From IMG/VR virus record IMGVR_UViG_3300043442_000932, positions 1 to 59,422 of that record: a stretch of 59,422 nt of DNA; one strand, written 5' to 3'. The notes beneath the pieces are model-generated. The model was not told the origin of the DNA. It made no database searches and saw only the letters and a list, made by a program, of their open reading frames with translations. A program made the translations under genes and the position numbers. This document shows positions 6,467-36,858 of the stretch, in pieces; position 1 is the stretch's first letter; the number at the start of each line of letters is the position of its first letter. The stretch comes from a virus. Lineage: Duplodnaviria; Caudoviricetes.

Positions 6467-6517
6467 CGGTTTGTCCTTTCGTTGTGAACCGTAAGATCCA
6501 TTATACTAACTTTAGTT

Positions 6518-6993: not shown

Positions 6994-7112
6994 TGCTTAG
7001 TTGTCCTTTCGTCGTTGGTTTGGTATTCCTGGATTCTATTATAACAACTTTAGTTTCCCGACCGAGCCCGGGCTAGGCTACCGATCTCGGTAACCCGCCC
7101 GGGTTGAGTTGA

Positions 7113-7445: not shown

Positions 7446-7492
7446 ACACTGTCCTTTCAGCGTTTGTTGATTCTATTATAATAACTTTAGTT

Positions 7493-7648
7493 TCAGCAAG
7501 GAGGATACCCATTCTTCACTCGCCACTCATTCAACTCGCGAATGATCTTCAACATCTCAGCAATCACCTCAGCAGAGTTCTCACCGCTGCCTTCAATCAC
7601 TTCGACGAACCCCTCAGCCATCTCTCGAACTTGCCCTCTCATCTTCAT
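7493..7648 (-). CDS. small hypothetical protein
   Basis: 51 aa MKMRGQVREMAEGFVEVIE...; fills the interval between two elements; TGA overlaps the element. Confidence 0.65.
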   Translation of the reverse strand: MKMRGQVREMAEGFVEVIEGSGENSAEVIAEMLKIIRELNEWRVKNGYPPC

Positions 7649-7687
7649 CCTTTCGTAGGTTGTAACACCATTATAACAACTTTAGTT

Positions 7688-7858
7688 TCAGACAGGGCAC
7701 GACTCGATCGCGTCACGAGCGTGGAATCGTCTCTCGAAGCCGCATTCTTTGCAGACCTCGGAGAGTCTCTTCTCTTCTCGAGCGAGATCGTCTACGATCC
7801 GCCTTCGGCCGGCCTTGCGGCCGATCCGGTAGGCGACGTAGGTCGAGAGTAGACCCAC
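7688..7858 (-). CDS. small CxxC protein
   Basis: 56 aa, GTG start, MGLLSTYVAYRIGRK...VCKECG...H...CP; TGA overlaps the element. Confidence 0.6.
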   Translation of the reverse strand: MGLLSTYVAYRIGRKAGRRRIVDDLAREEKRLSEVCKECGFERRFHARDAIESCPV

Positions 7859-8059
7859 CTAGGAATCCTGACCGTCATCGAACGGCAACGCGTCCTGGCC
7901 TGAAGTCTCGCGCAGAAGTTGCGCGACGACGTTGTGCCTCTCTGCGTCGGGCGTTTGCGCGACGATGTCCCACTCGTCCTCGGTGAAGTTCGGCGCGTCG
8001 GTGAGGAGGATGTCCTCCGCATCTCCGTACGATCCGTCCTTAGCGAAGTAGTACAGCAT
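7859..8059 (-). CDS. hypothetical protein
   Basis: 66 aa MLYYFAKDGSYGDA; RBS GAAAGGAG. Confidence 0.7.
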   Translation of the reverse strand: MLYYFAKDGSYGDAEDILLTDAPNFTEDEWDIVAQTPDAERHNVVAQLLRETSGQDALPFDDGQDS

Positions 8060-8091
8060 GTTGTCTCCTTTCGTAATCCATTATACTAACT

Positions 8092-8448
8092 TTAGTTTCC
8101 CTCGGCCCACGCCAGGACACCCGTCTCATCTTTCTTTCCGACTAGCACGCCTGATCCACTCGGGTGCGGCTTCCACGCCCACTCGCAGCACGGCACGCTG
8201 TCTTCGCACGGATGAAGTCCTGGGACGAGCGTAGCCGCAAGGCGAGGGAATGCCCGCAAGAAGTGAAGAACACAGTCGTGGCACAGAACCCAAACCTCAG
8301 GGTCTTCGATCTCCTCCCACGGCTCGTTGTCCGTGAAGCCGCCGTAGTGCCCAAGCGCTCTGAACGGTATCGTGATCCCGCCCTCAACTTGATGCTTGTT
8401 TCCAAACAGCGTCTTCTGCTCGAACCCGCACGCGTCGCACTCTGTCAT
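8092..8448 (-). CDS. Cys-rich hypothetical protein
   Basis: 118 aa; CDAC, CHDC, HPC...CC; stop inside the element. Confidence 0.7.
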   Translation of the reverse strand: MTECDACGFEQKTLFGNKHQVEGGITIPFRALGHYGGFTDNEPWEEIEDPEVWVLCHDCVLHFLRAFPRLAATLVPGLHPCEDSVPCCEWAWKPHPSGSGVLVGKKDETGVLAWAEGN

Positions 8449-8739
8449 CTACGAGACACGCGCCCAGGTCCAGGTCTGCTTGCCGTAGCGGCATGACGCA
8501 GAGTCGAAGTGTTCAAGCACCTTGGCTGAGATCATCTGCACGGCCTCGCGCTTGGTCGTGCCCGACCCCATCGGGTCCGAGTCGTACAGTCCGCGCATGA
8601 CCCACGGATCAGAGTGACTGTATGTCTCGTCGTAGGTGACGTAGCCGAGTTGAATCGGATCGTCGTTCGCGTACTTTGCGAAGACGTCCCACGTCATGTC
8701 CGCACGCTTGCGAGTGTAGATGTCGACGATGAAACTCAC
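8449..8739 (-). CDS. hypothetical protein
   Basis: 96 aa, translationally coupled ORF. Confidence 0.65.
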   Translation of the reverse strand: MSFIVDIYTRKRADMTWDVFAKYANDDPIQLGYVTYDETYSHSDPWVMRGLYDSDPMGSGTTKREAVQMISAKVLEHFDSASCRYGKQTWTWARVS

Positions 8740-8999
8740 GCCGGCACCCGGGCTTCCTTCGCGCGATCGAGCATCTCGATCCAGTCCTCGCCGCGCACGG
8801 TGACGCAGCGGAGGAAGGCCATGCGAGCCGATGCCTGGATGTTGCCGAGCAGGTAGGCCGGAGTCTCCTCCAACTTCGGGCTCACGTCGAAGCTGACGCT
8901 CTTCGCCGAGACCCAGATCTCGGTGAGGACCCGCGAAAGTTCGCGGATGTCGTTCTCGAGGTCGCTGACCCTGAGTTCTAGTTCTTGCTTTGTTGCCAT
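8736..8999 (-). CDS. coiled-coil hypothetical protein
   Basis: 87 aa; RBS GAAAGGAC. Confidence 0.7.
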   Translation of the reverse strand: MATKQELELRVSDLENDIRELSRVLTEIWVSAKSVSFDVSPKLEETPAYLLGNIQASARMAFLRCVTVRGEDWIEMLDRAKEARVPA

Positions 9000-9047
9000 G
9001 TCGATGTCCTTTCGTTGTTGGTAGATACCATTATAACAACTTTAGTT

Positions 9048-9305
9048 TCAGCCGGCCTCGTCCATCACCGGGTCGACCGCGTTACGCAAGGCTGTGTCGA
9101 TCCAGGCGTCCCGGTACTGGGTTGAGAACTTGAAGCCGCGATCGCTCGCGCGATTGAAGAGATACCAGCGGAAGAACTTCTCCGGGTCCTTGGCCTTCAC
9201 CCGCCCGCACGCTAACTCGATGCGATACAGGCTGCGGAGTTCTGGAGTGTCGAGGTCGCTCAGCGCCGCGACAAGCGCGCTGAAGTCTGCGTGTGAGACC
9301 TTCAT
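9048..9305 (-). CDS. hypothetical protein
   Basis: 85 aa; TGA overlaps the element. Confidence 0.7.
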   Translation of the reverse strand: MKVSHADFSALVAALSDLDTPELRSLYRIELACGRVKAKDPEKFFRWYLFNRASDRGFKFSTQYRDAWIDTALRNAVDPVMDEAG

Positions 9306-9590
9306 TCAGTCCCACCCCCTGCATCCGCAATAGAAGATGTCGTGCTCGAGAGCGCCGATCGGGTGGAACTCGTGATCGAGAATCCTCTTGAGGTGCGTCG
9401 CAGTCGGATCATTCTTCGCTCGCTCGTGAGCGACGTCGTGGTAGGCGCAGGTCCCGCATCGCACTTGAGCGACTCGTGATCCCTCTCCACGGTACTCGAA
9501 GAATGCCAGGTTGAAGTCTGACGGCTCGGTTCGTCCACACGAGCACTTCGCTGTGCGTCCGATGAGTTGGTCTTGCGTGATGGCTGTCAT
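9306..9590 (-). CDS. Cys/His-rich hypothetical protein
   Basis: 94 aa; CSCG, CGTC...H, YCGCRGWD. Confidence 0.72.
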   Translation of the reverse strand: MTAITQDQLIGRTAKCSCGRTEPSDFNLAFFEYRGEGSRVAQVRCGTCAYHDVAHERAKNDPTATHLKRILDHEFHPIGALEHDIFYCGCRGWD

Positions 9591-9688
9591 TGCTGTCCTT
9601 TCGTAGGTGATGATTCCATTATAACAACTTTAGTTTCAGCGCCGGGCCCGGGCCTCCCGCCCGGACCCAGACGCCTAGTGAATCTGAG

Positions 9689-9868
9689 TTACCACTCGCA
9701 GTCGACGGGCTCGAACCCGAGATCACGCGCGACCCTGCGCGCCTCTGCGGCAGTCTTGAATCCATCGAACGTCGGGCCGACGATCTTCGTCTGGCCTCCT
9801 CGCGGATTCTTGTGGACTCCGATGAACCGGCCATTCGGCTGATCCACGATGACCATGACTTTCTTCAT
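9689..9868 (-). CDS. small hypothetical protein
   Basis: 59 aa MKKVMVIVDQPNG...; RBS GAAAGGGGA. Confidence 0.65.
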   Translation of the reverse strand: MKKVMVIVDQPNGRFIGVHKNPRGGQTKIVGPTFDGFKTAAEARRVARDLGFEPVDCEW

Positions 9869-9919
9869 GTGTTTCCCCTTTCGTTGAAGTTGACGATTCA
9901 ATTATACAAACTTTAGTTT

Positions 9920-10219
9920 CTAGTCCAGGTAGTAGACGAAGTTTGACATCGCTTTGTCCCAAGCGTGAGAGAACTCATTCTCATCGGCTTGAGCGAATCC
10001 AAAGTTTGGATTGTTGTGCGATGCTCCGACAAGTACTGCTGCTCTGGCCATTGCTGTGTCCAGACCTGGATACTTTTCTTGCCAAGCGTTCGCGATGTAG
10101 TCACCCCACGTGACGACATACGCGTCATCGGAGATTGAGATGTAGACCTCAATGTCGTCTCCTTGGTGGCCAAAGAGCAGGTTCTCGGTGTCTTGAACTA
10201 TTAGTGATTCCATTGTCAT
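9920..10219 (-). CDS. hypothetical protein
   Basis: 99 aa; WGDYIANAWQEKY; TAG abuts the element. Confidence 0.7.
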   Translation of the reverse strand: MTMESLIVQDTENLLFGHQGDDIEVYISISDDAYVVTWGDYIANAWQEKYPGLDTAMARAAVLVGASHNNPNFGFAQADENEFSHAWDKAMSNFVYYLD

Positions 10220-10266
10220 TGGTGTCCTTTCGTCAGGTTGATGATTCAATTATACAAACTTTAGTT

Positions 10267-10620
10267 TCAGACTTCGTCAACAGGCACGGCCTTCGGGTAC
10301 GCGGAGATCGGAGTCCCACCCGGGATCACACTCACGTGTGTCTTCGTTTCGCGGAAGATCGGCCATTCGTCTTGCGTTTCAAACTTTCGCCAAGGCGACG
10401 CTTCTTCAGTTCCACATTCTGAGCAGATCTCAGTCTTGTCGTCAGTGCGCGACAGCGCGCCTGGGTACGCTCCCGGGTTGTCGTTTGTCGGGATGAACGA
10501 CGACTCGCAGCGCGGGCACACAGTCGCGTAGGCTGACCCGTCAACAGTTTCAGGCCCTGGCCAGGCCTGACCCGTCAACGATTCTTCGCCTTCCCTAGCC
10601 GGGCCTGACGTTTCGCTCAC
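10267..10620 (-). CDS. zinc-finger hypothetical protein
   Basis: CPRC...YPGALSRTDDKTEICSECGTEEA. Confidence 0.72.
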   Translation of the reverse strand: MSETSGPAREGEESLTGQAWPGPETVDGSAYATVCPRCESSFIPTNDNPGAYPGALSRTDDKTEICSECGTEEASPWRKFETQDEWPIFRETKTHVSVIPGGTPISAYPKAVPVDEV

Positions 10621-10892
10621 CTGTGCTCCTTGAGGTACGCTTCGATTCCGGCCATCATGTCAGGCAAAGCCTCACGCGCCTCGAGTGTGCTTTGCAGCAT
10701 GCTGATCCGTTCACTCAGCGCGTCTAGGCAAGCCAACTGCGCGCCGACACTCGGGTGAGTCGGTCCGTCTTCTTGCAGAGAAACTAGGTGATGCATTCGA
10801 GTCATGAGAGCCGTCACCACCACGTCGAGCTCGTAGGCCGACATGCTCATCTCGATTGATGGCTCTTCCGTCTTCTTCTTCTTTCGTTTCAT
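10617..10892 (-). CDS. hypothetical protein
   Basis: 91 aa; RBS AGGAGG. Confidence 0.7.
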   Translation of the reverse strand: MKRKKKKTEEPSIEMSMSAYELDVVVTALMTRMHHLVSLQEDGPTHPSVGAQLACLDALSERISMLQSTLEAREALPDMMAGIEAYLKEHR

Positions 10893-10973
10893 GTGGACCT
10901 CCTGTCCGTCATTTGGTTTGTGCGGTGCAGGCCGGAGGACAATGGGACTTGGACCCGGCCCGCACCACGATCT

Positions 10974-12824
10974 TTACTTTCCTGCTCCGCCGACCGCGGT
11001 CAACGCCTTGGCCGCTGCCGCGCCGATGAGTTGCGCCGCGCTCGCGATGTCGCGTCCGCACGCTACGACCTGCGCCTTGGTGCCACGGCAGATGTGCTCC
11101 GCCTCGCGTGACACGTGGCCGTGGTGCTCGAAGGTGAGCCACAGCACTCCGACACCGGCGCGATCGCACTCGTTGATCCACTTGCGTGCCGCCTGCGACT
11201 CGGCGTGAGTGTAGCAGCCATCGCTTGCGACGACCAGGAGTCGTGCGCCACCTCCAGAGAGGAGCGACACTCCGCCATCGAGAGCCTTGAACGCTTTGTC
11301 GAACCGCTCGGTGCCATCAGGTGCGCTGTACACGGTGACCTTGTCGAGGTGCTGACCGGGCTTGAGAGTCGGGAAGACGCCCTGACCGTAGTAGACCATC
11401 GCTGCTCGTCCTTGGACTCGGCGGACTGCCTCAGACATGACCCACGCTGAGACGGCCATCGGCTGCATCGCGTCGCTCATCGAGCCGCTGATGTCAACCA
11501 TCATGCCGACCGAGAGAGTCGGGTCGTCGACGTGCTTGCGGACGGTGCGGCGCCAAGGCTCGACCTGTGTCATGACACCCTTGCTCTTGAGCGCGGCGCC
11601 CTGCACCATCGCACGAGTGCGCAGGCGACCAGGAGGCAAGATCGAGTGGATCTCCTTCTCGTCACGATCGCGGTACTTCGCCTTGTCGAGCATCTGCGCG
11701 ACCTTGACAGCGGCCGAACGCTCGGGACCTGTCGGCTGACGCTCCTCAACAAGGGTGCTGGCAGTGTGCGTGTCTGCGACCGGACCAGTGCCTTTGCCGA
11801 AGACGTCGGCCGCGGTGTCGCGTGCGTCCTTGGCTTGCTTCGCGGCACCAGCGCGTGACTTGGCTTCGTCCTTCCAGTCCTGGCGTTCTTGCTGATCTGC
11901 GAGTTGGTCGTTGACAGAGACCGCGGTAGCTTCAGCGGCCTCCTCAAGAGCTTCCATCATCTCAGCGAAGTCCTCCGCACCGAGACCCGAGCTTGAGCCT
12001 TCGCCATCGCCTGAGCCATCGCCGCTTCCGCTGCCATCGCCAGGCTGACCATCTTCTGCGTCCTCTTCACCACGCTCCTCAGAGACTTCCTTGATCAGCG
12101 CTTCCCAGCGTCGGGCGATGTCCATGAGCACTGTGATGTTCGCGGCTTCGGTGTCTTGAGCTTGCTGCCAGAGAGCGCGGAGCTTGTCGTAGAGCTCTAC
12201 GCCCAAGATGCCGACGATCATCGTGCCGAGATCGGCAAGGTCGTCGAAGTCGAGGACACCAGCGTCGATGCGAGCGTACGTCAGAGCCGCCATGTTCGCG
12301 GCGATACGAGTCTTAGATCCCTCAATCGGGTTGTCACGCATGTCGGCGACGACCAGCTCGAGAGCGCACGCCTTGAGGAAGGCGGCCATGTCTGGGTCGA
12401 GAGCAACGCCGCGCTTCTCGATGCGTCCCTCTTCGAGATACACCAGCGCCATGAACTCGTGGCGCGTGAGCTCGTGCTGCATCGCGATGATGTCCCACGT
12501 GCTGAACCGAGCGTGCATCGCTTCGTGGTAGATGGCGCCGATGGCTTTCGGCCACTCGTACATGACGTCACGCTGAGTGAGGTCGCCGATCATCTCTGGC
12601 TTGATGCCTTTGCCGAACGCAGTCTCGACGTTGACCTCAACTTCCGCAGTCGCGGGAGTGAAGCAGGCCGGCGCTGTGCCGCCTGCGCCTGGTCCTACGT
12701 AGGCGATGAGGTCGCCGCGTGACGCCCACATGTTGGCGAGTATGCCGATCTTCGAGCCGACTGGCAGCCACTCTGACGGAGTTGCCTGGCCCTTGGTCTT
12801 GCGCTTGTAGTCGATGTGTCCCAT
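10974..12824 (-). CDS. CobT-like protein: HExxH metallopeptidase-like N-domain, acidic linker, C-terminal VWA domain
   Basis: YHEAMHAR...LEEGRIE; GDGSG acidic linker; MIDAS VDISGSM...GT...SDG; likely start MGHIDYK at 12824. Confidence 0.85.
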   Translation of the reverse strand: MGHIDYKRKTKGQATPSEWLPVGSKIGILANMWASRGDLIAYVGPGAGGTAPACFTPATAEVEVNVETAFGKGIKPEMIGDLTQRDVMYEWPKAIGAIYHEAMHARFSTWDIIAMQHELTRHEFMALVYLEEGRIEKRGVALDPDMAAFLKACALELVVADMRDNPIEGSKTRIAANMAALTYARIDAGVLDFDDLADLGTMIVGILGVELYDKLRALWQQAQDTEAANITVLMDIARRWEALIKEVSEERGEEDAEDGQPGDGSGSGDGSGDGEGSSSGLGAEDFAEMMEALEEAAEATAVSVNDQLADQQERQDWKDEAKSRAGAAKQAKDARDTAADVFGKGTGPVADTHTASTLVEERQPTGPERSAAVKVAQMLDKAKYRDRDEKEIHSILPPGRLRTRAMVQGAALKSKGVMTQVEPWRRTVRKHVDDPTLSVGMMVDISGSMSDAMQPMAVSAWVMSEAVRRVQGRAAMVYYGQGVFPTLKPGQHLDKVTVYSAPDGTERFDKAFKALDGGVSLLSGGGARLLVVASDGCYTHAESQAARKWINECDRAGVGVLWLTFEHHGHVSREAEHICRGTKAQVVACGRDIASAAQLIGAAAAKALTAVGGAGK

Positions 12825-12955
12825 AGTTTGTCCTTTGTCCTTGTCCCTGGTATCAATTATACCAACTTTAGTTTCTGAGAACCCCCAAGGGAGGTCCCTG
12901 GACACCTACTATCCAGAGACCCCCCGCAGCCAAGAGAGCCGAAAGGGGTGAAGGC

Positions 12956-13954
12956 TCAGATCTTGGCAGGTCTGCACTCTTCTCCGAAGACTCGAGTGAA
13001 GACATCGGCGACCACCGGGCGATCGAGCTCGGGCGCTGCCGCGAGCAAGTTGCTGATGGCGAACTTGGTGCCGAATGTCGTGCTGAGATCTCGGAAGGCG
13101 AGGAGCTCACGCATCTGCGGAGCCCACGACGTCTCGGCCGAGTCCTGCTTCTTGGCGAGGTTCTGCGCCGCGGTGACGGCGGCAGTCGGAACGCCGAGCT
13201 TGCGAGCAAGCGACCAGTCGGTGGTCATCTCGGCGTGAACCGCGAAGCGAGAGAGGAGAGCCTCAGAGAGGCGGACTCCCGGCGCATTCGGGTTTGTGGC
13301 CGCGATGACGTAGAACCCATCGGCAGCCTTGACGGTGCCGCGTTCAGGATTGGCAGTGACGTTGTACTCGCGTCGGCCGTCCATGAGACCGTAGACGATG
13401 CTGAGCACCTTCGGGTCGATGAGACCGATCTCGTCGATCAGCAGGACGCCGCCGGCTTCAGCAGCCTTGACAAGCGGACCATCTTCCCAGATGAAGCCGC
13501 CGCTCGGAGTCTGGACGTAGCCGCCCACGAGATCTGCGACTTCAGTGTCACCCGAGCCGAGCACAGTCTGCATGCCGCCGGCCTGGTCGTAGAACGCCGC
13601 TTCGACGAGTGCAGTCTTGCCGCAGCCGGGAGCTCCGTAGAGGAGGATGTAGCTGGACATCTCACGCGCCTTGCGGAGCACCATGACGTCGTCATGCTCA
13701 CCCCACTTGCGAGTGTAGTAGGCCTCGCCATTGGGTCGCATGAACTTGTCCATGCCAGTGAGTGATTCGGTGGTCGTCACGGCGACTTTCTTCTTGGGCG
13801 CTGGCGCGCGGGTCGGAGTGATCTTACCTTGTGCATTGACGTGCTCTGCTAGCTTCGTGGCCGCGTTGGTGTCGAACGCCTGAGCGGCGGCCGAGACCAG
13901 CAGGTCGGCGAGGCCGGCGCTGAGCTTGTCGTAGTCTGGAATTGTTGATGTCAT
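12956..13954 (-). CDS. MoxR/CobS-like AAA+ ATPase
   Basis: Walker A GAPGCGKT, DLVG, Walker B LLIDEI, IAATNP, SEALLSRF. Confidence 0.92.
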   Translation of the reverse strand: MTSTIPDYDKLSAGLADLLVSAAAQAFDTNAATKLAEHVNAQGKITPTRAPAPKKKVAVTTTESLTGMDKFMRPNGEAYYTRKWGEHDDVMVLRKAREMSSYILLYGAPGCGKTALVEAAFYDQAGGMQTVLGSGDTEVADLVGGYVQTPSGGFIWEDGPLVKAAEAGGVLLIDEIGLIDPKVLSIVYGLMDGRREYNVTANPERGTVKAADGFYVIAATNPNAPGVRLSEALLSRFAVHAEMTTDWSLARKLGVPTAAVTAAQNLAKKQDSAETSWAPQMRELLAFRDLSTTFGTKFAISNLLAAAPELDRPVVADVFTRVFGEECRPAKI

Positions 13955-14011
13955 TTTGTGTTTCCCCTTTGTGGTTTGTAGGTGTTGGATTCCATTATAC
14001 TAACTTTAGTT

Positions 14012-14485
14012 TCAGACCGAAGGCTGCGGGATGATCTTCTCAGGGAAGCCCCACGACTTACGAGTCTTCATGATTCGGCCAATGACTTTGTACGGCGTGT
14101 GGCCACGGCGTACCGCGAGCAGGTCGTCGGCGCTGACCTCAACGACAAGCGGACGCTTGACAATCTTCCAGCCGTTGGTGATCAGCGAGACGTACAGCGA
14201 GTCTGTCAGAGACAGGACGTCGCGGGTCATCTCACGGAGCTGAAGGTCAGTGTGAGTGTTGGTCGTCGGCGTGACACCAGGATTGAGAATCTTGGAGCTC
14301 GTGAACTGACGCCAGTTCTTCTTCGGTGCGGCGATGGTGAGACGGCGACGGTAGGTCGTCATCGGCACAACTGCCATGTCTGCTGCGCGGCCCTCAGGCA
14401 TGATGAGAACCTGAGTGACTTGCGAGGGTCGCTCGAACTCTAGATAGAGAGCTCTTCCGACCAGTGTGTTCTTGATGTCTGTCAT
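14012..14485 (-). CDS. hypothetical protein
   Basis: 157 aa bounded by two elements. Confidence 0.75.
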   Translation of the reverse strand: MTDIKNTLVGRALYLEFERPSQVTQVLIMPEGRAADMAVVPMTTYRRRLTIAAPKKNWRQFTSSKILNPGVTPTTNTHTDLQLREMTRDVLSLTDSLYVSLITNGWKIVKRPLVVEVSADDLLAVRRGHTPYKVIGRIMKTRKSWGFPEKIIPQPSV

Positions 14486-14539
14486 TGTGTCTTTCCCCTT
14501 TGTTGGTAGGTTGTAGTATCTATTATAACAACTTTAGTT

Positions 14540-14848
14540 TCAGGCCTGGGCCTTCGGGACCCGGGCTACCAGGGTCCAGCGAACTCGGCCGGCCTTGTCC
14601 GGGTTCTTGAGGATCACCCACTCGAGCGTCCAGCCGGTGGACTCGTTGAATCGCTTCCGCAGGTTGTAGCGGACGGTGTGGCAGTAGGCGTTGCTGCTGC
14701 CTTGGTACACGACGCCCCACTCTCCTGCGCGGCGCTTGATCGCGGCTAGGCGACGTGCGTACTTGCCTTCGCGAGACTTCTTTTGCGGAGTCGTGCGAAG
14801 CTGCGAGACCATCTCGTCGCTGATGAATGTGGTGATTGGCTTTGTCAT
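14540..14848 (-). CDS. basic hypothetical protein
   Basis: 102 aa; RBS CTGGGAGG; TGA overlaps the element. Confidence 0.72.
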   Translation of the reverse strand: MTKPITTFISDEMVSQLRTTPQKKSREGKYARRLAAIKRRAGEWGVVYQGSSNAYCHTVRYNLRKRFNESTGWTLEWVILKNPDKAGRVRWTLVARVPKAQA

Positions 14849-14904
14849 TGTGAGCCCTCCCAGGCGTAGTGGTTGACGTATTCCATTATAACAACTTTAG
14901 TTTC

Positions 14905-15303
14905 TCAGCTCACCGCCGCGAGCTGAGTAGACGGCACGCTGGTGAATGTGATCCAGACGTCGAAGTGGCTGAACGTGTTGCCGCCGATGTTGAGCGTCTG
15001 CTTCGGCAGGACGAATCCTGGCGAGCACGGGCACGAGCAGCCTGCGCGCTGCGACCACTGCAACTTGCCGAGATCAAACATCTCGCCAAGCAGCGAGCTA
15101 TGGATCAGCGTCTTGTAGAGGTTGTACGGGCGGCTGCGACGATTCATCAGGTTCTCGACGAGCGTCTCGTCCTTGACGTCGACGTACATGCGCGGAGCCG
15201 AGACGTACTCGGAGTAGCGCTGTCCGGCGTAGAGCTTGCGCTCGATGATCGTGATCTCAATGTCCTTGAGACGGCATGTGTATCGCTTGCGGGTATCTTC
15301 CAT
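14905..15303 (-). CDS. hypothetical protein
   Basis: 132 aa; WSQRAGCSCPCSPGF motif. Confidence 0.75.
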   Translation of the reverse strand: MEDTRKRYTCRLKDIEITIIERKLYAGQRYSEYVSAPRMYVDVKDETLVENLMNRRSRPYNLYKTLIHSSLLGEMFDLGKLQWSQRAGCSCPCSPGFVLPKQTLNIGGNTFSHFDVWITFTSVPSTQLAAVS

Positions 15304-15360
15304 TGTGTTGTCCTTTCGTCGTAGGTTTGTATTGCGATACCATTATAACAACTTTAGTTT

Positions 15361-15456
15361 CTAGAAGTTGTTGCCGATGACAGATGACGCTGAAGCCATG
15401 ATCACGAAGAACGCAACGACGGCCGCGGCTATTGCGATCGCCCTCAGAGTCTTCAT
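15361..15456 (-). CDS. small hydrophobic peptide
   Basis: 31 aa MKTLRAIAIAAAVVAFFVIMASASSVIGNNF; ATGA coupling; TAG abuts the element. Confidence 0.55.
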   Translation of the reverse strand: MKTLRAIAIAAAVVAFFVIMASASSVIGNNF

Positions 15457-15695
15457 AGCTCCTCCGGCCGCAGGCCTTCGACAAGCACCTTGAATAGGTC
15501 CTCATGCGTGAGTGTCTGCTCATCGACGATCTGGCCGCAGCTGAAGAACGCGAACGTAATCTCTTCACGGCCTACGCTGATCTCAAGTTCTTCTCGTTCT
15601 TGATCGTAGTAGTCTCCGACGAACACCCGCACAACGCGGCGCTCTTCATCGCCGAGCTCGCAGGTGTCGATTGACAGGTCTGGTTTTGTGATCAT
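15453..15695 (-). CDS. hypothetical protein
   Basis: 80 aa acidic ORF. Confidence 0.65.
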   Translation of the reverse strand: MITKPDLSIDTCELGDEERRVVRVFVGDYYDQEREELEISVGREEITFAFFSCGQIVDEQTLTHEDLFKVLVEGLRPEEL

Positions 15696-15780
15696 GATGT
15701 GTGTGTGTGTCCAGTTCTCCCAGGAACCGGGCTCAGTATCTCCAAGGATGTGAGCCCGGCTCCTAGCATGGGAGGTGACG

Positions 15781-16215
15781 CTAGACCGCAGCCCCTTCCT
15801 CGCTCAGACCGGCGATCATGTTGACGAACTCGTCGCTGTTGCGAACAGAGTCGCCAGCCGCGAGATCAATGAAGTCGTCGAAGCTCATTCGCGCGACGAG
15901 GTTTGTGATGTTGGACGCCTCACGCATCTCGACGATGCACTTGTCCCAGACAACGACCAGTACGTAGTCGTAGTCCGGCATGCAGAAGCTCTCTCCTGCG
16001 CTGATGCCGAAGTTCAGCTCCTGCGACCAGAGATCTCCGATGATCGTCGACATCGCGATGCGTGTCGCATAGCTCGAGTCTGACCATCGCGGCTTCGCCT
16101 GAATGATCGCTTGCGCGAGATCTTGCCTTTGACTTGATCCGCCCCAGTGGCTGTACAGCCACACCGGCGTCGCGTCTTTACTTTCCTTGAATCCGAATAC
16201 TGCCCTGTCACCCAT
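15781..16215 (-). CDS. hypothetical phage protein
   Basis: 144 aa; MGDRA...LYSHWGG...PRWSDSSYATRI; RBS CTGGGAGG. Confidence 0.78.
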   Translation of the reverse strand: MGDRAVFGFKESKDATPVWLYSHWGGSSQRQDLAQAIIQAKPRWSDSSYATRIAMSTIIGDLWSQELNFGISAGESFCMPDYDYVLVVVWDKCIVEMREASNITNLVARMSFDDFIDLAAGDSVRNSDEFVNMIAGLSEEGAAV

Positions 16216-16302
16216 GTTGTTGACCTCCCAGTCTTTGTTGTGGTGATGTGACTCGTGAGTGGGGCCCGGGCGGGATTGCCCGGACCCCGAACTCGCGAGG
16301 TA

Positions 16303-16644
16303 TTACTTGGCCAAGAGGACCGTGTAGTTCCCCTCAACCAGCGTCGCGGAGTATGCCTCCGGGAACGCGGCCTTGAGAGCCTCTCGGTCGATCTTGCTCA
16401 TGTTGCGGAGCGAGATCGTGATTCGCTCGACACCGCCGATGGTGGCTGAGGTGCAGTCACCGAGCATCTCGCGGAGAGCCTTCTCAGCGGCGTCCTTCTG
16501 CGCTTCGAGCGCCTTGATGCCTGCCTTGGCCTCAGCGAACTGCGCGATCAAGGCCTCGGCCATGTCACGATTGTCGTCGAGCACCGCGACCGACTTGGTC
16601 GTGGTGACCGCTGTCGTCGTGGTTGTGGTGGTTGTGGTTGCCAT
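16303..16644 (-). CDS. hypothetical protein resembling the C-terminal part of YqaJ-type viral recombinases
   Basis: Coiled coil + LREMLGD...IGG...KIDREALKAAFPEAY; poly-Thr N-terminus. Confidence 0.6.
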   Translation of the reverse strand: MATTTTTTTTTAVTTTKSVAVLDDNRDMAEALIAQFAEAKAGIKALEAQKDAAEKALREMLGDCTSATIGGVERITISLRNMSKIDREALKAAFPEAYSATLVEGNYTVLLAK

Positions 16645-16760
16645 TTTGTGAACCTCCCAGTTCTTGTTGATTGGCTGTATACCATTATAACAACTTTAGT
16701 TTCAGAGTTCGGGCTTTTCCAGGGCCCTGGCTCCTTGTCCCTAATAGTAAGGACGGGGTG

Positions 16761-16985
16761 TTACAGGGTTTCGTTGCGCGGCCGGAACGGAATGACCTGA
16801 GCGTCGGGCTTCTCTGGCTCAGGCTCGGGGGTGTCGGGGCGTTCTTTGTCCGCGAGTACCGAGACATAGCGAAGCTCGGCGTCGAGCTCTTCAGCGATGA
16901 ACTTCGCGAGGAAGTCAGAGATGGCCTCGGCCTTCTCTTCGTCGGCCTGAATCGAGAACGACGCGCTGATGTTGTACCAGGTCAT
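16761..16985 (-). CDS. hypothetical protein
   Basis: 74 aa; ends AQVIPFRPR. Confidence 0.65.
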   Translation of the reverse strand: MTWYNISASFSIQADEEKAEAISDFLAKFIAEELDAELRYVSVLADKERPDTPEPEPEKPDAQVIPFRPRNETL

Positions 16986-17413
16986 TTGCGCTCGTCCGGC
17001 CTGATCTCATACTTGCGGCCATCGGCCTTCTTGAATCGCCAGCCATAGTTCTTCATGAACGTTCGCAGCTGCCCACCGGTGACGCCCATCTTCTCGGCGA
17101 ACTCGGCGACTGTGAAGATCTGGTAGTGGTTCTCTGGAGTGTTGATCCAGCGTCGGATGACGTCGTCGGGATCGAGATCGGTGCGTCGGCCGCTGTTGAA
17201 GATGTCCTTACGGTTCTCTGCCGAGATCAGGTTTCGCTCGCGGCTACTGAGCACGACCATCGCTCGCGGAAGTCCGAGAACGTCGACGGCCTTTCGAAGA
17301 ATGTCCTCGGCCTGTTTCGGGTCGAAGATCTTGTAGCTGTCGTCTCCGCCGCGCAGCTCAGTGATGATCTCGTGGAATGTCTTTTCTTTGTCTTGCACTG
17401 TAGTCACTTCCAT
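16982..17413 (-). CDS. hypothetical protein with C-terminal winged-HTH-like region
   Basis: FTVAEFAEKMGVTGGQLRTFMK...FKK..GRKYEIR. Confidence 0.65.
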   Translation of the reverse strand: MEVTTVQDKEKTFHEIITELRGGDDSYKIFDPKQAEDILRKAVDVLGLPRAMVVLSSRERNLISAENRKDIFNSGRRTDLDPDDVIRRWINTPENHYQIFTVAEFAEKMGVTGGQLRTFMKNYGWRFKKADGRKYEIRPDERK

Positions 17414-17473
17414 GTACGTACCTCCCCAGGTAGTTGTTGGTAGGTACCATTATAACAACTTTAGTTTCCGAGC

Positions 17474-17722
17474 CTACAGCTCGAATCGCCAGAAGCCGGG
17501 GAAGAGAGACGGAAAGGCGCAGTCGATACAGATCGGCCAGGCCTCCTCATCTTCGTTGTCGACGAGCAGAGCACACGGAATGTAGGTGTCAGAGCACGGC
17601 CCAACCAAGATGCCGCAGTTCTCGCACTCGGTGTCGCCGATCGTGAAGTTGAAGAGACCGGATGTCGCGACGCGAATCGCGTCATCCGGCTCCTCGAGTA
17701 TGAGCATTTCGTACGAGATCAT
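17474..17722 (-). CDS. Cys-rich hypothetical protein
   Basis: CENCG...CIDC. Confidence 0.65.
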   Translation of the reverse strand: MISYEMLILEEPDDAIRVATSGLFNFTIGDTECENCGILVGPCSDTYIPCALLVDNEDEEAWPICIDCAFPSLFPGFWRFEL

Positions 17723-17743
17723 GAGCGTTGGTCGCTCATGGTA

Positions 17744-18409
17744 TCACGAACGGACGATCTTGCGGATCTCCGCCAGCTGAGCTTCAAGCTCAGCCACTCG
17801 CGACAGCAACTTCTCGACGCGGCCATTTGAGACCTCGCTGACAAGAGCGCTGATCAAGTCGGGCGTTGCCGGCGTAGCAGCTGGGCTCTTGCTCTTGCTC
17901 TTGCGGCTCGTCGGCTCACGCAGCTCAGCGAGAGCGGCGAGGCGTTCGCCATGAGTCTCGTTGTAGCGGCGCGAGAGCTCGAGGAGGCGCTCTCTGTTCT
18001 TGCGGTAGTACGCTCGGCGCGAGCGCTTGTCTCCGCGACTGATTGAGTTTCCATCACCGAGGATGATCCCGGGAATGACTCCGCTGCTGACGCGTGTCGG
18101 AACGTCTGGCGACATCCACCACAGCATGCCTTGCGTTCCTCGAGTGGATTGTTTTCCGGCTCGAGCGATGCGCTCTTCCTTGGTTTCTCGGCGAGAGAAC
18201 ACCATTGACTTGCTCTGCATCTGACGCAGGACCTGCGTGACTCGCGTGGAGTCGATGTCAGTCTCCAGCAATTGACTTGCCTGGAAACGGATCTCACCTC
18301 CCGCGACAGGCTCCGGGGCAGACGAGAGGATCACGGTGATCGTCTCTTCTAGTTGCGGTGTCGTGACTCGCATGGCGCGAGTCTTGCGACGTGTTGACGT
18401 TTTCGTCAT
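17744..18409 (-). CDS. putative DNA-binding protein (wHTH-like N-terminus, basic region, coiled coil)
   Basis: 221 aa; first gene of the array; RRAYYRKNRERLLE; RBS AGGAGA. Confidence 0.6.
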   Translation of the reverse strand: MTKTSTRRKTRAMRVTTPQLEETITVILSSAPEPVAGGEIRFQASQLLETDIDSTRVTQVLRQMQSKSMVFSRRETKEERIARAGKQSTRGTQGMLWWMSPDVPTRVSSGVIPGIILGDGNSISRGDKRSRRAYYRKNRERLLELSRRYNETHGERLAALAELREPTSRKSKSKSPAATPATPDLISALVSEVSNGRVEKLLSRVAELEAQLAEIRKIVRS

Positions 18410-18570
18410 TTGTCTCTCCTATGAGTTTCGCTCGGCTGGATGCCGAGGTTGACTCAATTATAACATCTTTAGTTTCGCCGGCGTGATGATGAATCTAGAA
18501 AGCTATATACGTCTGATGTGACTTTTCATAGAGAGAGCTCTAATAGGACTAATTGTCCCATTTCTAGAGA

Positions 18571-34568: not shown

Positions 34569-35366
34569 TTATCTTTGACAGGTAGGACACCAGTAGAGAG
34601 TCCGTGAATCAAGTTCTGTTTCTTTTACTTCTGTCATACAGAGACGGCACGACTGACGTTGCCGTTTATAGACGTAGCTGAACTGAGAACAACCGTGTAA
34701 TTTGACTTCGTCTTCGCCCAAGTGCTCGGGCGCCACCGTGCGAATCTTGCCGTCGGTCGACCCATCTCGAAGAAGAATAGAAGCGTTCCGCCATATCTCA
34801 TCGAACTTCTCGCGTTGCATCTGCATACCGGGAATAAATGGATCAAGACGAGACAAGAATAACAGCTCGGCACGGTACACGTTTCCGATCCCAGCGATCA
34901 CGGATTGATCCATCAACAGTCCCGCGATGGTACGCTTCGACTTCACGATCTTCTTCCAAGCCTGTTCTGGGTCTGCGTCGTCGTGTATCGGATCAGGTCC
35001 AAGCCTCTTCTTTATCGCGCTCACTCCCGCGTCGTCAAGCAGTTCACACGCTGTCGGCGCTACCAGGTCCGAGATGTAGATGTCGTGTTGCAGTCGCAAC
35101 CTGGTCGAGTCTTTAGGTTTCTTGTTTGGGTTCTTTGACAGATAGAACCACCCATACAGTCCAAGATGCACGTGCACGGTCTGCCCGGTGTCAAAGTGCA
35201 AGAACAGATGTTTGCCGTGCGCTGTCGTATTATTCAATATACGATTGTCGATATTCTTCGCCTCGTCCGCGAACCGCCCCTGCGGACTAGAAGCTCTCAC
35301 TGTCTTCCCAGCGAAAGCTCCCTCATGTATCGTCGCCAGGTGTCGTATTGAATGTCCTTCAGGCAT
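34569..35366 (-). CDS. nei: Fpg/Nei family DNA glycosylase
   Basis: Catalytic N-terminal MPEGH, GKHL, HLGLYG, LGPDP, LLMDQ..IAGIGNVYR.E, zinc finger CRLC...WCPTCQ. Confidence 0.93.
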   Translation of the reverse strand: MPEGHSIRHLATIHEGAFAGKTVRASSPQGRFADEAKNIDNRILNNTTAHGKHLFLHFDTGQTVHVHLGLYGWFYLSKNPNKKPKDSTRLRLQHDIYISDLVAPTACELLDDAGVSAIKKRLGPDPIHDDADPEQAWKKIVKSKRTIAGLLMDQSVIAGIGNVYRAELLFLSRLDPFIPGMQMQREKFDEIWRNASILLRDGSTDGKIRTVAPEHLGEDEVKLHGCSQFSYVYKRQRQSCRLCMTEVKETELDSRTLYWCPTCQR

Positions 35367-35479
35367 TCTTCCTCTTTTCGTTGTTCGTCGTTTCCTTGCT
35401 ATTCTACAATAGTTACGGCGGAAAGTTTGAACTGTGATCAATGACCTACAACAGATCTATGTCATGTTACTATTGCCCT

Positions 35480-35615
35480 CGCGCCAGACGGGCTGAATGG
35501 TTGATAGGTCGTCTAGGCCGAGCGCATGTAGTAGGGCGCTCGCACCCTCTCCCAGGGGTGGCCGGCCGGGGCCGTGACGTGCGTTGTCCTTTCCGACGTC
35601 ACTGGCCCCGCCATA
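35480..35615 (+). ncRNA. putative four-hairpin small RNA (or structured leader of the endolysin gene)
   Basis: Four consecutive stems (35483-35518, 35520-35541, 35543-35560, 35568-35609); G-U pairs favour + strand; extended -10-like TGTTACTAT at 35465-35473. Confidence 0.55.
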
Positions 35616-35707
35616 AGCTCTTCTTGATCAGGAACCAAGACAGGGTTCCAGAAGTAGTTTATAGTTGCTCTTACCGTTTTTACACCCACCTCTAGGAGCT
35701 TTTCGCA

Positions 35708-36568
35708 ATGGGCAAAGTCGCATGGGATTACGTAGTCAAGGTCACGATGCCGGAGGACCTCAAGGGTCACAAGCCAGGCAGGCTTCCTGAGGCGCTGCTG
35801 AAGCCGGCGGCAGGCGGAGGCAAGCTTCACTGGCGCGCAGCGAATGCGTGGGGCGCGATGGTCGCGAAGGCTAAGGCCGACGGTATCGAGCTCAAGCCGG
35901 TCTCGTCTGGCGACACCTACCGCTCGTACGACTCACAGCTCAAGGTCTTCCTCGAGCGCTACACAAAAGAGCCGAACGGCAACAGCACTCGTACGTTTGA
36001 AGGCGTCAAGTGGTACAAGAAGAACGAGAAGCTCGCCAGCCTCGCTGCTCCAGGATCTTCACAGCACAACCTCGGAATCGCCGTTGACGTTCACACCGCT
36101 AGCGGTGCGCGTCTTGAGTGGCTGATCGACAACGTCAAGGACTTCGGTTTCTCGTGGGAAGTTGTCCCAGAAGAGCCGTGGCACCTCCGCTACGTCGCAG
36201 GCGACGTTGTTCCAGCAGCAGTCTCGGCTTGGATCGCCGCCGGCAACGGCTACGCGAAGCCAGACGTCGCGGCCGCTCCAGCAGCCGAAGAGAAAGAAGA
36301 CAAGCCAGCACCGGCTCCTAAAGCTGAAAAGCCAGCCGCCGCGCCCGCGCCGACAGGTGACGGAGCGCTCGACGTTGGCGACAGTGGTCCTCGTGTCAAG
36401 GCTCTGCAAGAAGCGCTGAAGAAGCAAGGCTTCTACCCGAAGAACCCGGACGGTAAGTTTGATCAGGCAACAGCGAACGCAGTGAAGATGCTGAAAGGCA
36501 AGCACGGACTGAACGCTAAAGAGACCAAGGCCGGCGCCAAGGTCCTTGACATTCTCGGACTGAAGTAA
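35708..36568 (+). CDS. endolysin: M15 (VanY-like) peptidase + peptidoglycan-binding domain
   Basis: YRSY..Q, A.PGSSQHNLG.AVD, EPWH; C-terminal GDSGPRVKALQEAL...DGKFD..T. Confidence 0.9.
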   Translation: MGKVAWDYVVKVTMPEDLKGHKPGRLPEALLKPAAGGGKLHWRAANAWGAMVAKAKADGIELKPVSSGDTYRSYDSQLKVFLERYTKEPNGNSTRTFEGVKWYKKNEKLASLAAPGSSQHNLGIAVDVHTASGARLEWLIDNVKDFGFSWEVVPEEPWHLRYVAGDVVPAAVSAWIAAGNGYAKPDVAAAPAAEEKEDKPAPAPKAEKPAAAPAPTGDGALDVGDSGPRVKALQEALKKQGFYPKNPDGKFDQATANAVKMLKGKHGLNAKETKAGAKVLDILGLK

Positions 36569-36573
36569 GTCTA

Positions 36574-36858
36574 ATGAACGAGGTGCTCGTCGCGCTCATT
36601 GGTCTTGTCGGCGTCTTAGGCGTCGGCTACATGGAGCACGGACGCAGGACAAATAACCGCCGCTGGCATAAGAACAGCGAAGATCACAACTTTGTCGTCG
36701 ACAAGATTGACCAGCTCGGCAAGTCTCTCGGCCGTTCAATCGACAGAGTTGAAGAGACCGCGGTTCGTACAGAAGGCAAGTTAGACCAGCACATCAACGA
36801 TCACATGACAGGAAAGCTCAGTGGGCAAGAAAAAGTCCGGCGGCGGAAGCTCGGGTAA
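36574..36858 (+). CDS. membrane protein with coiled coil (lysis-cassette associated)
   Basis: N-terminal TM; KLDQHINDH. Confidence 0.72.
   Translation: MNEVLVALIGLVGVLGVGYMEHGRRTNNRRWHKNSEDHNFVVDKIDQLGKSLGRSIDRVEETAVRTEGKLDQHINDHMTGKLSGQEKVRRRKLG

What the first reader, a model, noticed from the sequence alone, without database searches (positions are those of the whole stretch)
35480..35615. Putative four-hairpin sRNA whose loops are complementary to the ribosome-binding leaders of the cassette genes
Seen: an intergenic stretch folds into four consecutive hairpins. The hairpin-4 loop is UUGUCCUUUC, the exact complement of the GAAAGGACAA RBS of cassette leaders (10/10 at 4496, 6471, 7001, 15308; 9/10 near 3713, 7449, 9005, 9593, 10222). 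Hairpin 3 displays CUCCCA(G), the complement of the second leader class CUGGGAG (near 14857, 15718, 16225, 16654). Hairpin 2 (GUAGG) and hairpin 1 (GGUUGA) loops match ACCUAC and UCAACC tracts that recur in the same leaders. An extended -10-like TGTTACTAT precedes it. Established: anti-SD loop sRNAs exist (actinobacterial 6C RNA, alphaproteobacterial cuckoo RNAs). Inference: a late-expressed phage RNA, co-oriented with the endolysin, that shuts off translation of the early array in trans.
Basis: partly seen in the sequence, partly recalled or inferred. Interest (0 to 1): 0.82.

Follow-up and report, generated by a model that had tools for sequence, protein, structure and literature searches.

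The report
Conserved phage small RNA, anti-RBS loop
An uncultured freshwater actinobacterial phage carries, just upstream of its lysis genes, a conserved and structured small RNA of about 135 bases whose last hairpin loop matches the ribosome-binding sites of the phage's own early genes, so it may switch those genes off, though no transcript or repression has been shown.

Summary
The four hairpins at 35483-35612 are real. They form a discrete conserved module. Lineages about 5% diverged show no change across 35461-35636. A metagenomic copy, L086 (about 15% diverged overall), has 5 changes in 153 nt. Four of those five lie in stems and all keep pairing on the + strand: one compensatory G.U to U-A, two wobble changes. 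The fifth adds a U.G pair. On the - strand the same helices would hold 3-4 C.A mismatches. The only open frame shows no coding pattern.

A -35-less extended -10 (TGTTACTAT) precedes the element. In L086 hairpin 4 is followed by a run of seven U. A variable spacer and a separately conserved endolysin promoter block follow. I therefore read it as a stand-alone + strand sRNA gene.

Only the hairpin-4 loop complementarity is robust: 13 of 26 early leaders match 7-11 nt, and early leaders score better than other start regions (P=0.001). Hairpin 3 is marginal. Hairpins 1 and 2 are at chance.

There is no Rfam family. No copy was found in 5 related phage genomes, even though two of them (of four checked) carry the same leader motif. 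"Late expression" and trans repression are untested.

The parts
35465..35473 (+). Extended -10 promoter-like site TGTTACTAT (TG + TACTAT). There is no conserved -35. The predicted start is about 35480-35483.
   Evidence: Read from the sequence. Identical in L003, L004 and L086, while 35434-35460 just upstream varies. Same TGTTA..AT type as the early promoters. Consensus match only; no start site has been mapped.
35483..35518 (+). Hairpin 1, 12 pairs, loop AAUGGUUGA at 35496-35504.
   Evidence: Folds. L086 carries a compensatory change, 35491 G>T with 35509 T>A (G.U to U-A), and 35488 A>G (A-U to G.U). Loop complementarity to leaders is not above chance.
35519..35542 (+). Hairpin 2, 7 pairs, loop AUGUAGUAGG at 35526-35535.
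   Evidence: In L086, 35525 C>T gives U.G and 35526 A>T adds another U.G pair, which extends the stem. Loop complementarity is at chance.
35543..35560 (+). Hairpin 3, 6 pairs including one U.G, loop CUCCCA at 35549-35554 (pyrimidine-rich, anti-SD-like).
   Evidence: Leader matches: 4 of 26 with >=6 nt against 5 of 38 other start regions; shuffle P=0.03.
35564..35612 (+). Hairpin 4, 18 Watson-Crick pairs, 10-nt loop UUGUCCUUUC at 35584-35593. Proposed to be both the terminator and the seed loop.
   Evidence: -29.5 kcal/mol, z -4.0. Invariant in every copy seen. In L086 it is followed by ACA and then seven U. The loop is unpaired in the ensemble and is the site of the best predicted pairing for 9 of 26 early leaders at <= -10 kcal/mol.
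35614..35639 (.). Hypervariable spacer between the RNA module and the endolysin promoter block.
   Evidence: 14 differences in 26 nt against L086. In a contig of run X12, 35616-35636 is replaced by 117 other letters (table 5).
35640..35683 (+). Conserved promoter-like block (AAGACA-17-TATAGT, -10 at 35660-35665) about 43 nt upstream of the endolysin ATG.
   Evidence: Promoter scan. Only 2 differences against L086. A similar block stands before the endolysin of DSL-LC01, which lacks the RNA.
35708..36858 (+). Lysis cassette: VanY/M15 endolysin with a PG_binding_1 domain (35708-36568) and a 94-aa ORF with a hydrophobic N-terminus (36574-36858, holin-like).
   Evidence: Pfam VanY 4.9e-18 and PG_binding_1 5.2e-11. 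ORFs. The holin label is an inference from the sequence; there is no Pfam hit.
34569..35416 (-). Divergent Fpg/Nei DNA glycosylase gene (34569-35366) with a conserved promoter-like CTATTCTACAATAG (TAGAAT on the - strand) at 35399-35416.
   Evidence: Pfam H2TH 1.2e-20 and Fapy_DNA_glyco 3.3e-11. The motif is unique in the window and also occurs in L005.
1003..18474 (-). Early-gene array: 26 copies of the promoter AACTAAAGTTNNTATAAT, each followed by a short A/C-rich leader, many with the RBS GAAAGGAC(A). These are the proposed targets.
   Evidence: 26 matches against 0.05 expected, all on the - strand; leaders. In a crude gene call, the GAAAGGAC-type RBS appears only in this array.

Best explanation
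35465-35613 is a stand-alone small RNA gene on the + strand. It has a -35-less extended -10 promoter and encodes an RNA of about 130-135 nt with four hairpins. The last hairpin (H4) is a GC-rich terminator.

Shown: the module is conserved far beyond its flanks. Its substitutions preserve pairing on the + strand only. It is not coding. It is separated from the endolysin by a variable spacer and a separately conserved promoter block.

Inferred: the RNA acts in trans by base pairing. The exposed 10-nt H4 loop, helped at most weakly by the pyrimidine loop of H3, binds the GAAAGGAC(A)-type ribosome-binding sites of the short leaders of the phage's early genes. That occludes 30S binding and turns down translation of that regulon. 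This would be an RNA counterpart of a protein translational repressor of early mRNAs. The timing of expression is unknown.
For: Conservation. There are 0 differences across 35461-35636 against L003 and L004, with a 5.4% background (P=6e-5 at 5.4%, 0.012 at 2.5%). No difference inside 35461-35615 was listed for contigs of three further DNA runs. L086 has 5 of 153 differences against about 15% in the flanks (P=5e-5 after removing the 24 positions fixed by the search pattern).

RNA and strand. All 43 pairs are standard in all 3 distinct rows. There is 1 compensatory pair and 2 one-sided wobble changes. On the - strand, 3 (window) or 4 (L086) of the same pairs would be non-standard. Simulated random substitutions leave every pair intact in only 2-4% of trials.

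Not coding. Third-position divergence is 3 of 44, against 31-42% in five neighbouring genes. The frame is truncated in L086. There is no Pfam hit.

Stand-alone unit. The promoter motif is conserved. L086 has a U7 run after H4. Six of 26 early cassettes in this phage (3738, 7038, 9618, 12856, 14522, 14885) end in strong GC-rich hairpins, most of them without a U run. The spacer is variable, and the downstream promoter block is conserved and shared with DSL-LC01.

Target. The loop is accessible. 13 of 26 leaders carry a 7-11 nt perfect complement, against 6 of 38 other start regions. With accessibility included, early leaders average -8.7 kcal/mol against -6.1 (Mann-Whitney P=0.001), and 9 of 26 against 1 of 38 reach <= -10.
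Against: No transcript ends are known. The promoter and terminator are consensus-level calls, and the window's own H4 has no U run.

Only one diverged copy exists. The column-shuffle control is therefore uninformative (167 of 500 shuffles reach the observed values).

L086 was found with a pattern that fixed 24 loop bases, so loop conservation in L086 is not independent evidence.

Seven of the ten loop bases are what I recall any anti-SD-like sequence would carry. 14 of 38 other start regions also match at >=6 nt.

The GAAAGGACA leader motif occurs 18 times in DSL-LC01 and 8 times in G001, and both lack the RNA. There is therefore no sign of co-evolution.

Conservation is uniform over the whole length, not confined to a seed. 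That is more typical of protein-binding or tertiary-folded RNAs.

The promoter is of the early type, so self-repression of co-expressed genes would have to work through delayed accumulation.
Confidence: 0.4

Rival explanations
1. It is a stand-alone structured sRNA, but with a different job. It may target host mRNAs through its pyrimidine loops. Alternatively it may act as a protein-binding or decoy RNA, for example a mimic of the 16S 3' tail or of another host RNA. On this reading the match to the early leaders is a by-product of their being Shine-Dalgarno-like.
For: Conservation covers the whole length, including H1-H3 and the junctions, not just a seed. The H1 and H2 loops have no significant phage targets. 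The leader motif exists without the RNA in relatives. 14 of 38 non-early start regions also match the H4 loop at >=6 nt.
Against: The loop matches the phage-specific extension (C-A-A after the SD core) in 10 of 26 leaders at >=9 nt. Early leaders outscore the other start regions. No host sequence is available for testing host targets, and no known RNA family matches.
Confidence: 0.25
2. It is a cis-acting 5' leader of the lysis operon. Transcription from TGTTACTAT is stopped at H4 unless an antitermination or ligand signal allows read-through into the endolysin and holin genes. This would be an attenuator, a riboswitch-like device, or an arrangement like the lambda PR'-tR' leader.
For: It lies directly upstream of, and co-oriented with, the lysis cassette. 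It combines a compact multi-hairpin domain with a strong terminator-like hairpin, which has a U7 run in L086. Whole-length conservation fits an aptamer-like fold.
Against: A separately conserved promoter-like block lies between it and the endolysin. That block is shared with DSL-LC01, which lacks the element. The spacer is hypervariable, and in one variant it is replaced by 117 nt. The only alternative pairing I found, between the H2 5' arm and the H4 5' arm, is no better than shuffles (z -0.31), and by my reading the 35526 A>T change in L086 breaks it. No riboswitch or leader family matches. Relatives express the endolysin without the element.
Confidence: 0.2
3. It is not an RNA gene. It may be a small basic protein (the 84-aa ORF at 35441-35695), or a DNA-level element such as a protein-binding site, a recombination or mobile module, or a replication or packaging signal.
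For: An open + frame spans the element. Three of the five L086 substitutions fall on its third codon positions and are synonymous. The module has sharp boundaries, and one variant has a junction at 35615.
Against: Third-position divergence is 3 of 44 against 31-42% in real genes. The ORF as a whole shows 8/8/11 differences by codon position. Its N-terminus changes non-synonymously, its C-terminus is frame-shifted or truncated in L003 and L086, and the proposed promoter lies inside it. There is no Pfam hit. A pure DNA element does not predict G.U-compatible, strand-specific, compensatory changes. No second copy exists in the window, in 80 related loci or in 5 related genomes, so repeat or mobile behaviour is not seen.
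Confidence: 0.07

Closest known systems
c4 antisense RNA of phages P1 and P7
   Same: It is a phage-encoded structured RNA whose loop sequences pair with a ribosome-binding region and block translation. I saw this described in passages of the review PMC12197685.
   Different: As I recall, c4 acts on one downstream target in its own operon (icd-ant) to maintain immunity. Here the candidate targets are a class of at least 9-13 early leaders lying 18-34 kb away on the opposite strand of a large, apparently lytic phage. There is no Rfam match to any family at E<=10 apart from CcsR1.
6C sRNA of Actinobacteria (Rfam 6C family)
   Same: [quoted passage not shown] I saw only the title and abstract of PMC6486639 in a search listing.
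   Different: 6C is host-encoded and widely conserved, and its loops are C-rich. This element has four hairpins, its loops read CUCCCA and UUGUCCUUUC, it is phage-encoded, it is confined to one narrow lineage, and it gives no Rfam hit.
CcsR / cuckoo RNAs of Alphaproteobacteria (RF02791 and relatives)
   Same: They have two hairpins with anti-SD-like pyrimidine loops, the second of which is the terminator hairpin. This was the only Rfam model to align at all: H3 plus H4, 35531-35610.
   Different: The score was 10.5 bits against a gathering score of 65.3, with E=7.7, which is chance level. The CCUCCUCCC loop motif is absent. The host phylum differs. This is not homology.
RegA translational repressor of phage T4 (recalled, not looked up)
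   Same: Functional logic only: one phage product binds the ribosome-binding regions of many early mRNAs and shuts off their translation.
   Different: RegA is a protein. Here the proposed effector is an RNA, and no repression has been demonstrated.
Lambda PR'-tR' leader ('6S' late leader RNA; recalled, not looked up)
   Same: It is a short terminated transcript from a promoter placed immediately upstream of the lysis genes.
   Different: In lambda, read-through by Q antitermination is the only route to lysis-gene expression. Here a separately conserved promoter block sits between the terminator and the endolysin, and no antiterminator gene is adjacent.

Membership tests
Rfam 6C RNA | Match to the family covariance model at or near the gathering score | tested here: not met
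   No hit at gathering over the whole window, and none at E<=10 over 35380-35720.
Rfam CcsR1 / cuckoo RNA (RF02791) | Covariance-model score at gathering (65.3 bits) and CCUCCUCCC loop motifs | tested here: not met
   10.5 bits, E=7.7. The loops read CUCCCA and UUGUCCUUUC.
P1/P7 c4-type antisense RNA | Loops complementary to the ribosome-binding region of the target mRNA | tested here: met
   The H4 loop matches 7-11 nt in 13 of 26 early leaders and gives the best accessible pairing at <= -10 kcal/mol for 9 of 26. This is complementarity only; no binding assay was done.
P1/P7 c4-type antisense RNA | Sequence and structure homology, and location in the same operon upstream of its single target | tested here: not met
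   No Rfam match. The candidate targets lie at 1003-18474 on the opposite strand.
Independent trans-acting sRNA gene (generic class) | Own promoter | tested here: inconclusive
   The extended -10 TGTTACTAT is conserved in 4 of 4 copies, but it is only a consensus match. It was not listed by the two-hexamer promoter scan. No start site has been mapped.
Independent trans-acting sRNA gene (generic class) | Own terminator giving a discrete 3' end | tested here: inconclusive
   An 18-bp GC hairpin is followed by U7 in L086 but not in the window. Six of 26 early cassettes end in strong GC-rich hairpins, most without a U run. Termination was not measured.
Independent trans-acting sRNA gene (generic class) | Conserved secondary structure supported by covariation | tested here: met
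   1 compensatory and 2 wobble-compatible changes, with 0 of 43 pairs broken. The support is weak in number: 3 distinct rows, and the shuffle control is uninformative.
Independent trans-acting sRNA gene (generic class) | Discrete transcript detected | not testable with these tools
   The only RNA run holding part of the stretch was available as contigs. These cannot show ends or strand.
Transcription attenuator / riboswitch leader of the lysis operon | Mutually exclusive antiterminator pairing, a known aptamer, and no promoter between the element and the gene | tested here: not met
   The alternative pairing has z -0.31 and is not preserved in L086. No Rfam aptamer matches. A conserved promoter-like block lies in between.
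Small protein-coding gene (ORF 35441-35695) | Codon-position substitution pattern, preserved frame, family match | tested here: not met
   Third positions differ at 3 of 44 against 31-42% in real genes. The frame is truncated to 71 aa in L086. No Pfam family matches.

The most novel reading that the evidence does not exclude
A large lytic actinobacterial phage encodes an RNA counterpart of a RegA-type global translational repressor. A single sRNA of about 135 nt uses the loop of its own terminator hairpin as a seed against the RBS motif shared by a whole regulon of individually promoted early genes. It would time early-gene shut-off post-transcriptionally, without Hfq. A still bolder variant is that the loop mimics the 16S 3' tail and acts as a decoy for a host factor that attacks the anti-SD. 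My evidence does not exclude this, but nothing here supports it.
Probability: 0.3. Interest if true: 0.75.

Novelty: new variant of a known kind. Interest (0 to 1): 0.55.

Why it matters
Known phage sRNAs come almost entirely from enterobacterial and a few other model phages. The review I consulted (PMC12197685, passages) has no occurrence of 'Mycobacteri'. Transcriptome work on actinophages reports abundant intergenic non-coding RNAs without assigning them a function (PMC10986025, section 17 and discussion passages).

This element has clean boundaries, structure-preserving substitutions, and a concrete hypothesis testable by compensatory mutation: an RNA that recognises the common RBS of some 10 or more early leaders. 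If that holds, phages can shut off an early regulon with an RNA instead of a protein. It would also provide a compact, Hfq-independent, RBS-class-specific repressor module for Actinobacteria.

If it does not hold, this is still a new, narrowly distributed structured phage RNA next to the lysis genes, and its function would need another explanation.

Tried and rejected
tRNA or tmRNA: ARAGORN finds only tRNA-Pro and tRNA-Thr at 21601-21760.

Known RNA families: none at gathering. At E<=10 only CcsR1 appeared, at chance level.

Homologues:
- blastn against 50,697 phage records found no match.
- blastn and nhmmer against 82 loci found only L003 and L004.
- Four exact or degenerate pattern scans of IMG/VR found only the same two contigs.
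- The metagenome scan gave L086 (a real copy), L087 (the same length and match position as L084, not examined further) and L085 (a chance hit inside a long ORF).
- The GTDB scan gave 3 hits. By my own estimate about 3 are expected by chance, and none matches model R1.
- R1 found nothing in 80 further sources or in 5 related phage records. The tool itself notes that an empty answer without a positive control shows little.

Analogous element in relatives: the IGR upstream of the DSL-LC01 endolysin is unstructured (z -0.61). The Nei-endolysin IGR of L005 has a different sequence and, by eye, no TCCTTTC.

- strand RBS reading: GAAAGGACAA on the - strand at 35584 has no ATG, GTG or TTG within reach (by eye).

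Interaction energies: my first attempt used duplex_subopt over whole sequences and gave meaningless long duplexes with positive totals and no separation (P=0.51). I replaced it with the windowed, accessibility-aware scan. That scan is my own approximation, not IntaRNA or RNAup.

Expression: the one RNA run (X20, contigs, depth 2) laid only on 35093-35243 and 35297-35445 and not on the element. Contigs cannot show strand or ends, and DNA carry-over is possible, so I draw nothing from this.

Repeated late-promoter motifs: the three IGR motifs are each unique in the window.

Supplementary files of papers were not consulted.

Full report
CONTEXT. The window is an IMG/VR viral contig of 59,422 bp, estimated 38% complete. 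Its nearest named relative is the uncultured freshwater Actinomycetia phage DSL-LC01 (OQ999401.1, 129 kb). The ribonucleotide reductase is 82% identical at the protein level and the endolysin 55%. I saw the DSL-LC01 paper, PMC10611076, only as a search listing.

The finding lies in a 341-nt intergenic region, 35367-35707. On one side is a leftward Fpg/Nei glycosylase gene (34569-35366; Pfam H2TH and Fapy_DNA_glyco). On the other is a rightward VanY/M15 endolysin with a PG_binding_1 domain (35708-36568), followed by a 94-aa holin-like ORF.

Bases 1003-18474 carry 26 copies of a promoter, AACTAAAGTTNNTATAAT, all on the - strand. Each is followed by a short A/C-rich leader, and many leaders carry the RBS GAAAGGAC(A).

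OBSERVATION. The four hairpins exist. The H4 loop is the exact complement of GAAAGGACAA, and the listed sites are right. CTGGGAG sites and their complement in the H3 loop are right too, but that 7-mer is not enriched in the window.

I tested each loop against the 26 leaders, against 38 other start regions from a crude gene call, and against 2000 loop shuffles.
- H4 matches >=7 nt in 13 of 26 leaders, up to 11 nt, against 6 of 38 other start regions. Shuffle P=0.0115, and no shuffle in 2000 reached the observed mean match length.
- H3 matches >=6 nt in 4 of 26 against 5 of 38 (P=0.03).
- H1 matches in 7 of 26 against 2 of 38 (P=0.11).
- H2 matches in 3 of 26 against 3 of 38 (P=0.18).

I then ran my own accessibility-aware pairing scan. 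The unpaired windows of the RNA turned out to be exactly the four loops and the two ends. Early leaders averaged -8.7 kcal/mol and other start regions -6.1 (Mann-Whitney P=0.001). Nine of 26 early leaders against 1 of 38 others reached <= -10 kcal/mol, all nine through H4. One of the nine (7670) pairs inside the coding start, not at the RBS. So the H4 claim holds and beats generic SD complementarity within this phage. The H1 and H2 claims do not.

IS IT A REAL ELEMENT? Two IMG/VR contigs (L003, L004) are about 5.4% diverged over 5.9 kb yet show no difference across 35461-35636. Differences cluster immediately left (35434-35460) and right (35637 onward) of that stretch.

Contigs of three more DNA runs likewise listed no difference inside 35461-35615. 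One contig (X12) replaces 35616-35636 with 117 other letters, which puts a junction three bases after H4 ends.

A loop-only pattern scan of the metagenome collection recovered L086, a contig 84.7% identical over 4.9 kb. In L086 the flanking intergenic DNA differs at about 15%, but 35461-35613 differs at only 5 of 153 positions. That gives P=5e-5 even after discounting the 24 bases fixed by my pattern.

RNA, AND WHICH STRAND. The five L086 changes are as follows.
- 35491 G>T together with 35509 T>A: these are partners in H1, and G.U becomes U-A.
- 35488 A>G: A-U becomes G.U.
- 35525 C>T: C-G becomes U.G in H2.
- 35526 A>T: this creates a further U.G pair.

All 43 pairs stay standard on the + strand. 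On the - strand, 3 (window) or 4 (L086) of them would be C.A mismatches. Random placement of five substitutions leaves every pair intact in 2-4% of simulations, and in 0.3-0.9% if at least four must also fall in stems. With only three distinct rows, the column-shuffle control is uninformative. The covariation evidence is therefore real but thin.

NOT CODING. One + frame (35441-35695, 84 aa) is open, and three of the five changes are synonymous third positions in it, so I tested it. The five neighbouring genes differ from L086 at 31-42% of third positions. The element differs at 3 of 44 (P=3e-5; 8e-4 with the fixed bases removed). The whole ORF shows a flat 8/8/11 pattern by codon position. Its ends are not conserved, and it is cut to 71 aa in L086. 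It has no Pfam hit.

STAND-ALONE GENE OR LEADER? TGTTACTAT (35465-35473) is invariant in all copies, while the 27 nt upstream of it vary. It is a -35-less extended -10, like the early promoters (TGTTATAAT type).

H4 has 18 Watson-Crick pairs (-29.5 kcal/mol). In L086 it is followed by ACA and then seven U, a textbook intrinsic terminator. In the window the tail is only moderately U-rich, but 6 of 26 early cassettes in this phage also end in strong GC-rich hairpins, most without a U run.

Downstream come a hypervariable spacer (35614-35639) and then a block (35640-35683) with only 2 differences against L086. That block contains AAGACA-17-TATAGT. A similar block precedes the endolysin of DSL-LC01, which lacks the element. 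I read it as the endolysin's own promoter, which makes the element a separate inserted module.

The only candidate antiterminator pairing is no better than shuffles (z -0.31), and by my reading it is broken in L086. The attenuator or riboswitch reading stays possible, at about 0.2, but is less economical.

DISTRIBUTION. No Rfam family matches. No copy was found in 50,697 phage records, in 80 other endolysin loci, or in five related large phage records. Yet DSL-LC01 and G001 carry 18 and 8 strand-biased copies of GAAAGGACA, and DSL-LC01 carries 13 early-promoter copies. The RNA is therefore a recent acquisition of one narrow lineage on top of an older leader motif. That allows 'evolved to target it' but gives no co-evolution evidence.

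MECHANISM AND COMPARISON. My best reading (0.4) is a trans-acting sRNA whose terminator-loop seed occludes the RBS of the early leaders.
- In logic it resembles P1/P7 c4 RNA, where loops pair with an RBS (review PMC12197685, passages).
- In style it resembles the actinobacterial 6C sRNA, which uses pyrimidine loops and needs no chaperone (PMC6486639, title and abstract in a listing).
- In architecture it resembles the cuckoo/CcsR RNAs (listing; Rfam alignment at chance level).
It is a member of none of these families. The comparisons with T4 RegA and with the lambda PR'-tR' leader are recalled, not looked up.

On the question of print: my searches for 'phage-encoded' with 'small RNA' and 'anti-Shine-Dalgarno', 'phage-encoded sRNA' with 'ribosome binding site' and 'early genes', and 'actinobacteriophage' with 'small RNA' and 'non-coding' returned no paper describing such an RNA. 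Those searches cover only the held library. Actinophage transcriptomes do report abundant intergenic RNAs of unknown function (PMC10986025).

WHAT IS NOT SHOWN. There is no transcript, no timing and no binding evidence, and the host is unknown. 'Late-expressed' is unsupported.

VERDICT. This is a genuine, conserved, + strand structured RNA module with a plausible and testable anti-RBS function. Interest 0.55.

Noticed in passing
window 1003-18474 (- strand): There are 26 copies of an 18-nt promoter motif, AACTAAAGTTNNTATAAT (extended -10, no conserved -35, conserved upstream GAAACTAAAG). Each drives a small gene with a leader of about 25-35 nt. The motif also occurs 15 times in G005 and 13 times (at <=2 mismatches) in DSL-LC01, but not in G001-G003.
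   Followed up: partly
window 21601-21760 (- strand): Two adjacent phage tRNA genes, tRNA-Pro(UGG) and tRNA-Thr(UGU), found by ARAGORN and Rfam.
   Followed up: no
window 35616-35636; run X12 contig (table 5): One metagenomic variant replaces these 21 nt with 117 other letters, starting three bases after hairpin 4 ends. The inserted letters were not shown, so their content (another hairpin, a promoter?) is unknown.
   Followed up: no
window 35399-35416; also about 20490-20520 and 30190-30400 (by eye output): TAGAAT-type -10 motifs (for example TTGTAGAATAG leftward before the Nei gene) recur before several middle-region genes. The Nei-side motif CTATTCTACAATA is also present in L005, but there it lies next to the endolysin rather than next to Nei.
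   Followed up: partly
window 3738-3800, 7038-7100, 9618-9680, 12856-12920, 14522-14590, 14885-14950 (- strand, upstream of early promoters): Strong GC-rich hairpins (-22 to -38 kcal/mol) sit directly before the next early promoter, most of them without a U run. They look like U-tract-poor terminators insulating each early cassette.
   Followed up: partly
window 32273-35366 (- strand): A class II-like ribonucleoside-triphosphate reductase (683 aa; 58.7% identical to that of Mycobacterium phage Gaia) lies next to a phage-encoded Fpg/Nei DNA glycosylase. Both are shared with DSL-LC01.
   Followed up: no
window 35093-35243 and 35297-35445; RNA run X20: Two 151-nt contigs from a salt-marsh metatranscriptome (depth 2, 95-99% alike) lie on the Nei gene and on its upstream region up to 35445. 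That is beyond the predicted leftward -10. Strand and origin (RNA or carried-over DNA) cannot be told.
   Followed up: no
L085 790-879; L088, L089, L090: The three-loop degenerate pattern also hit a eukaryote-like 664-aa membrane-protein ORF and three unrelated MAG contigs. None matches model R1. They are chance hits, in about the number I estimate is expected.
   Followed up: yes
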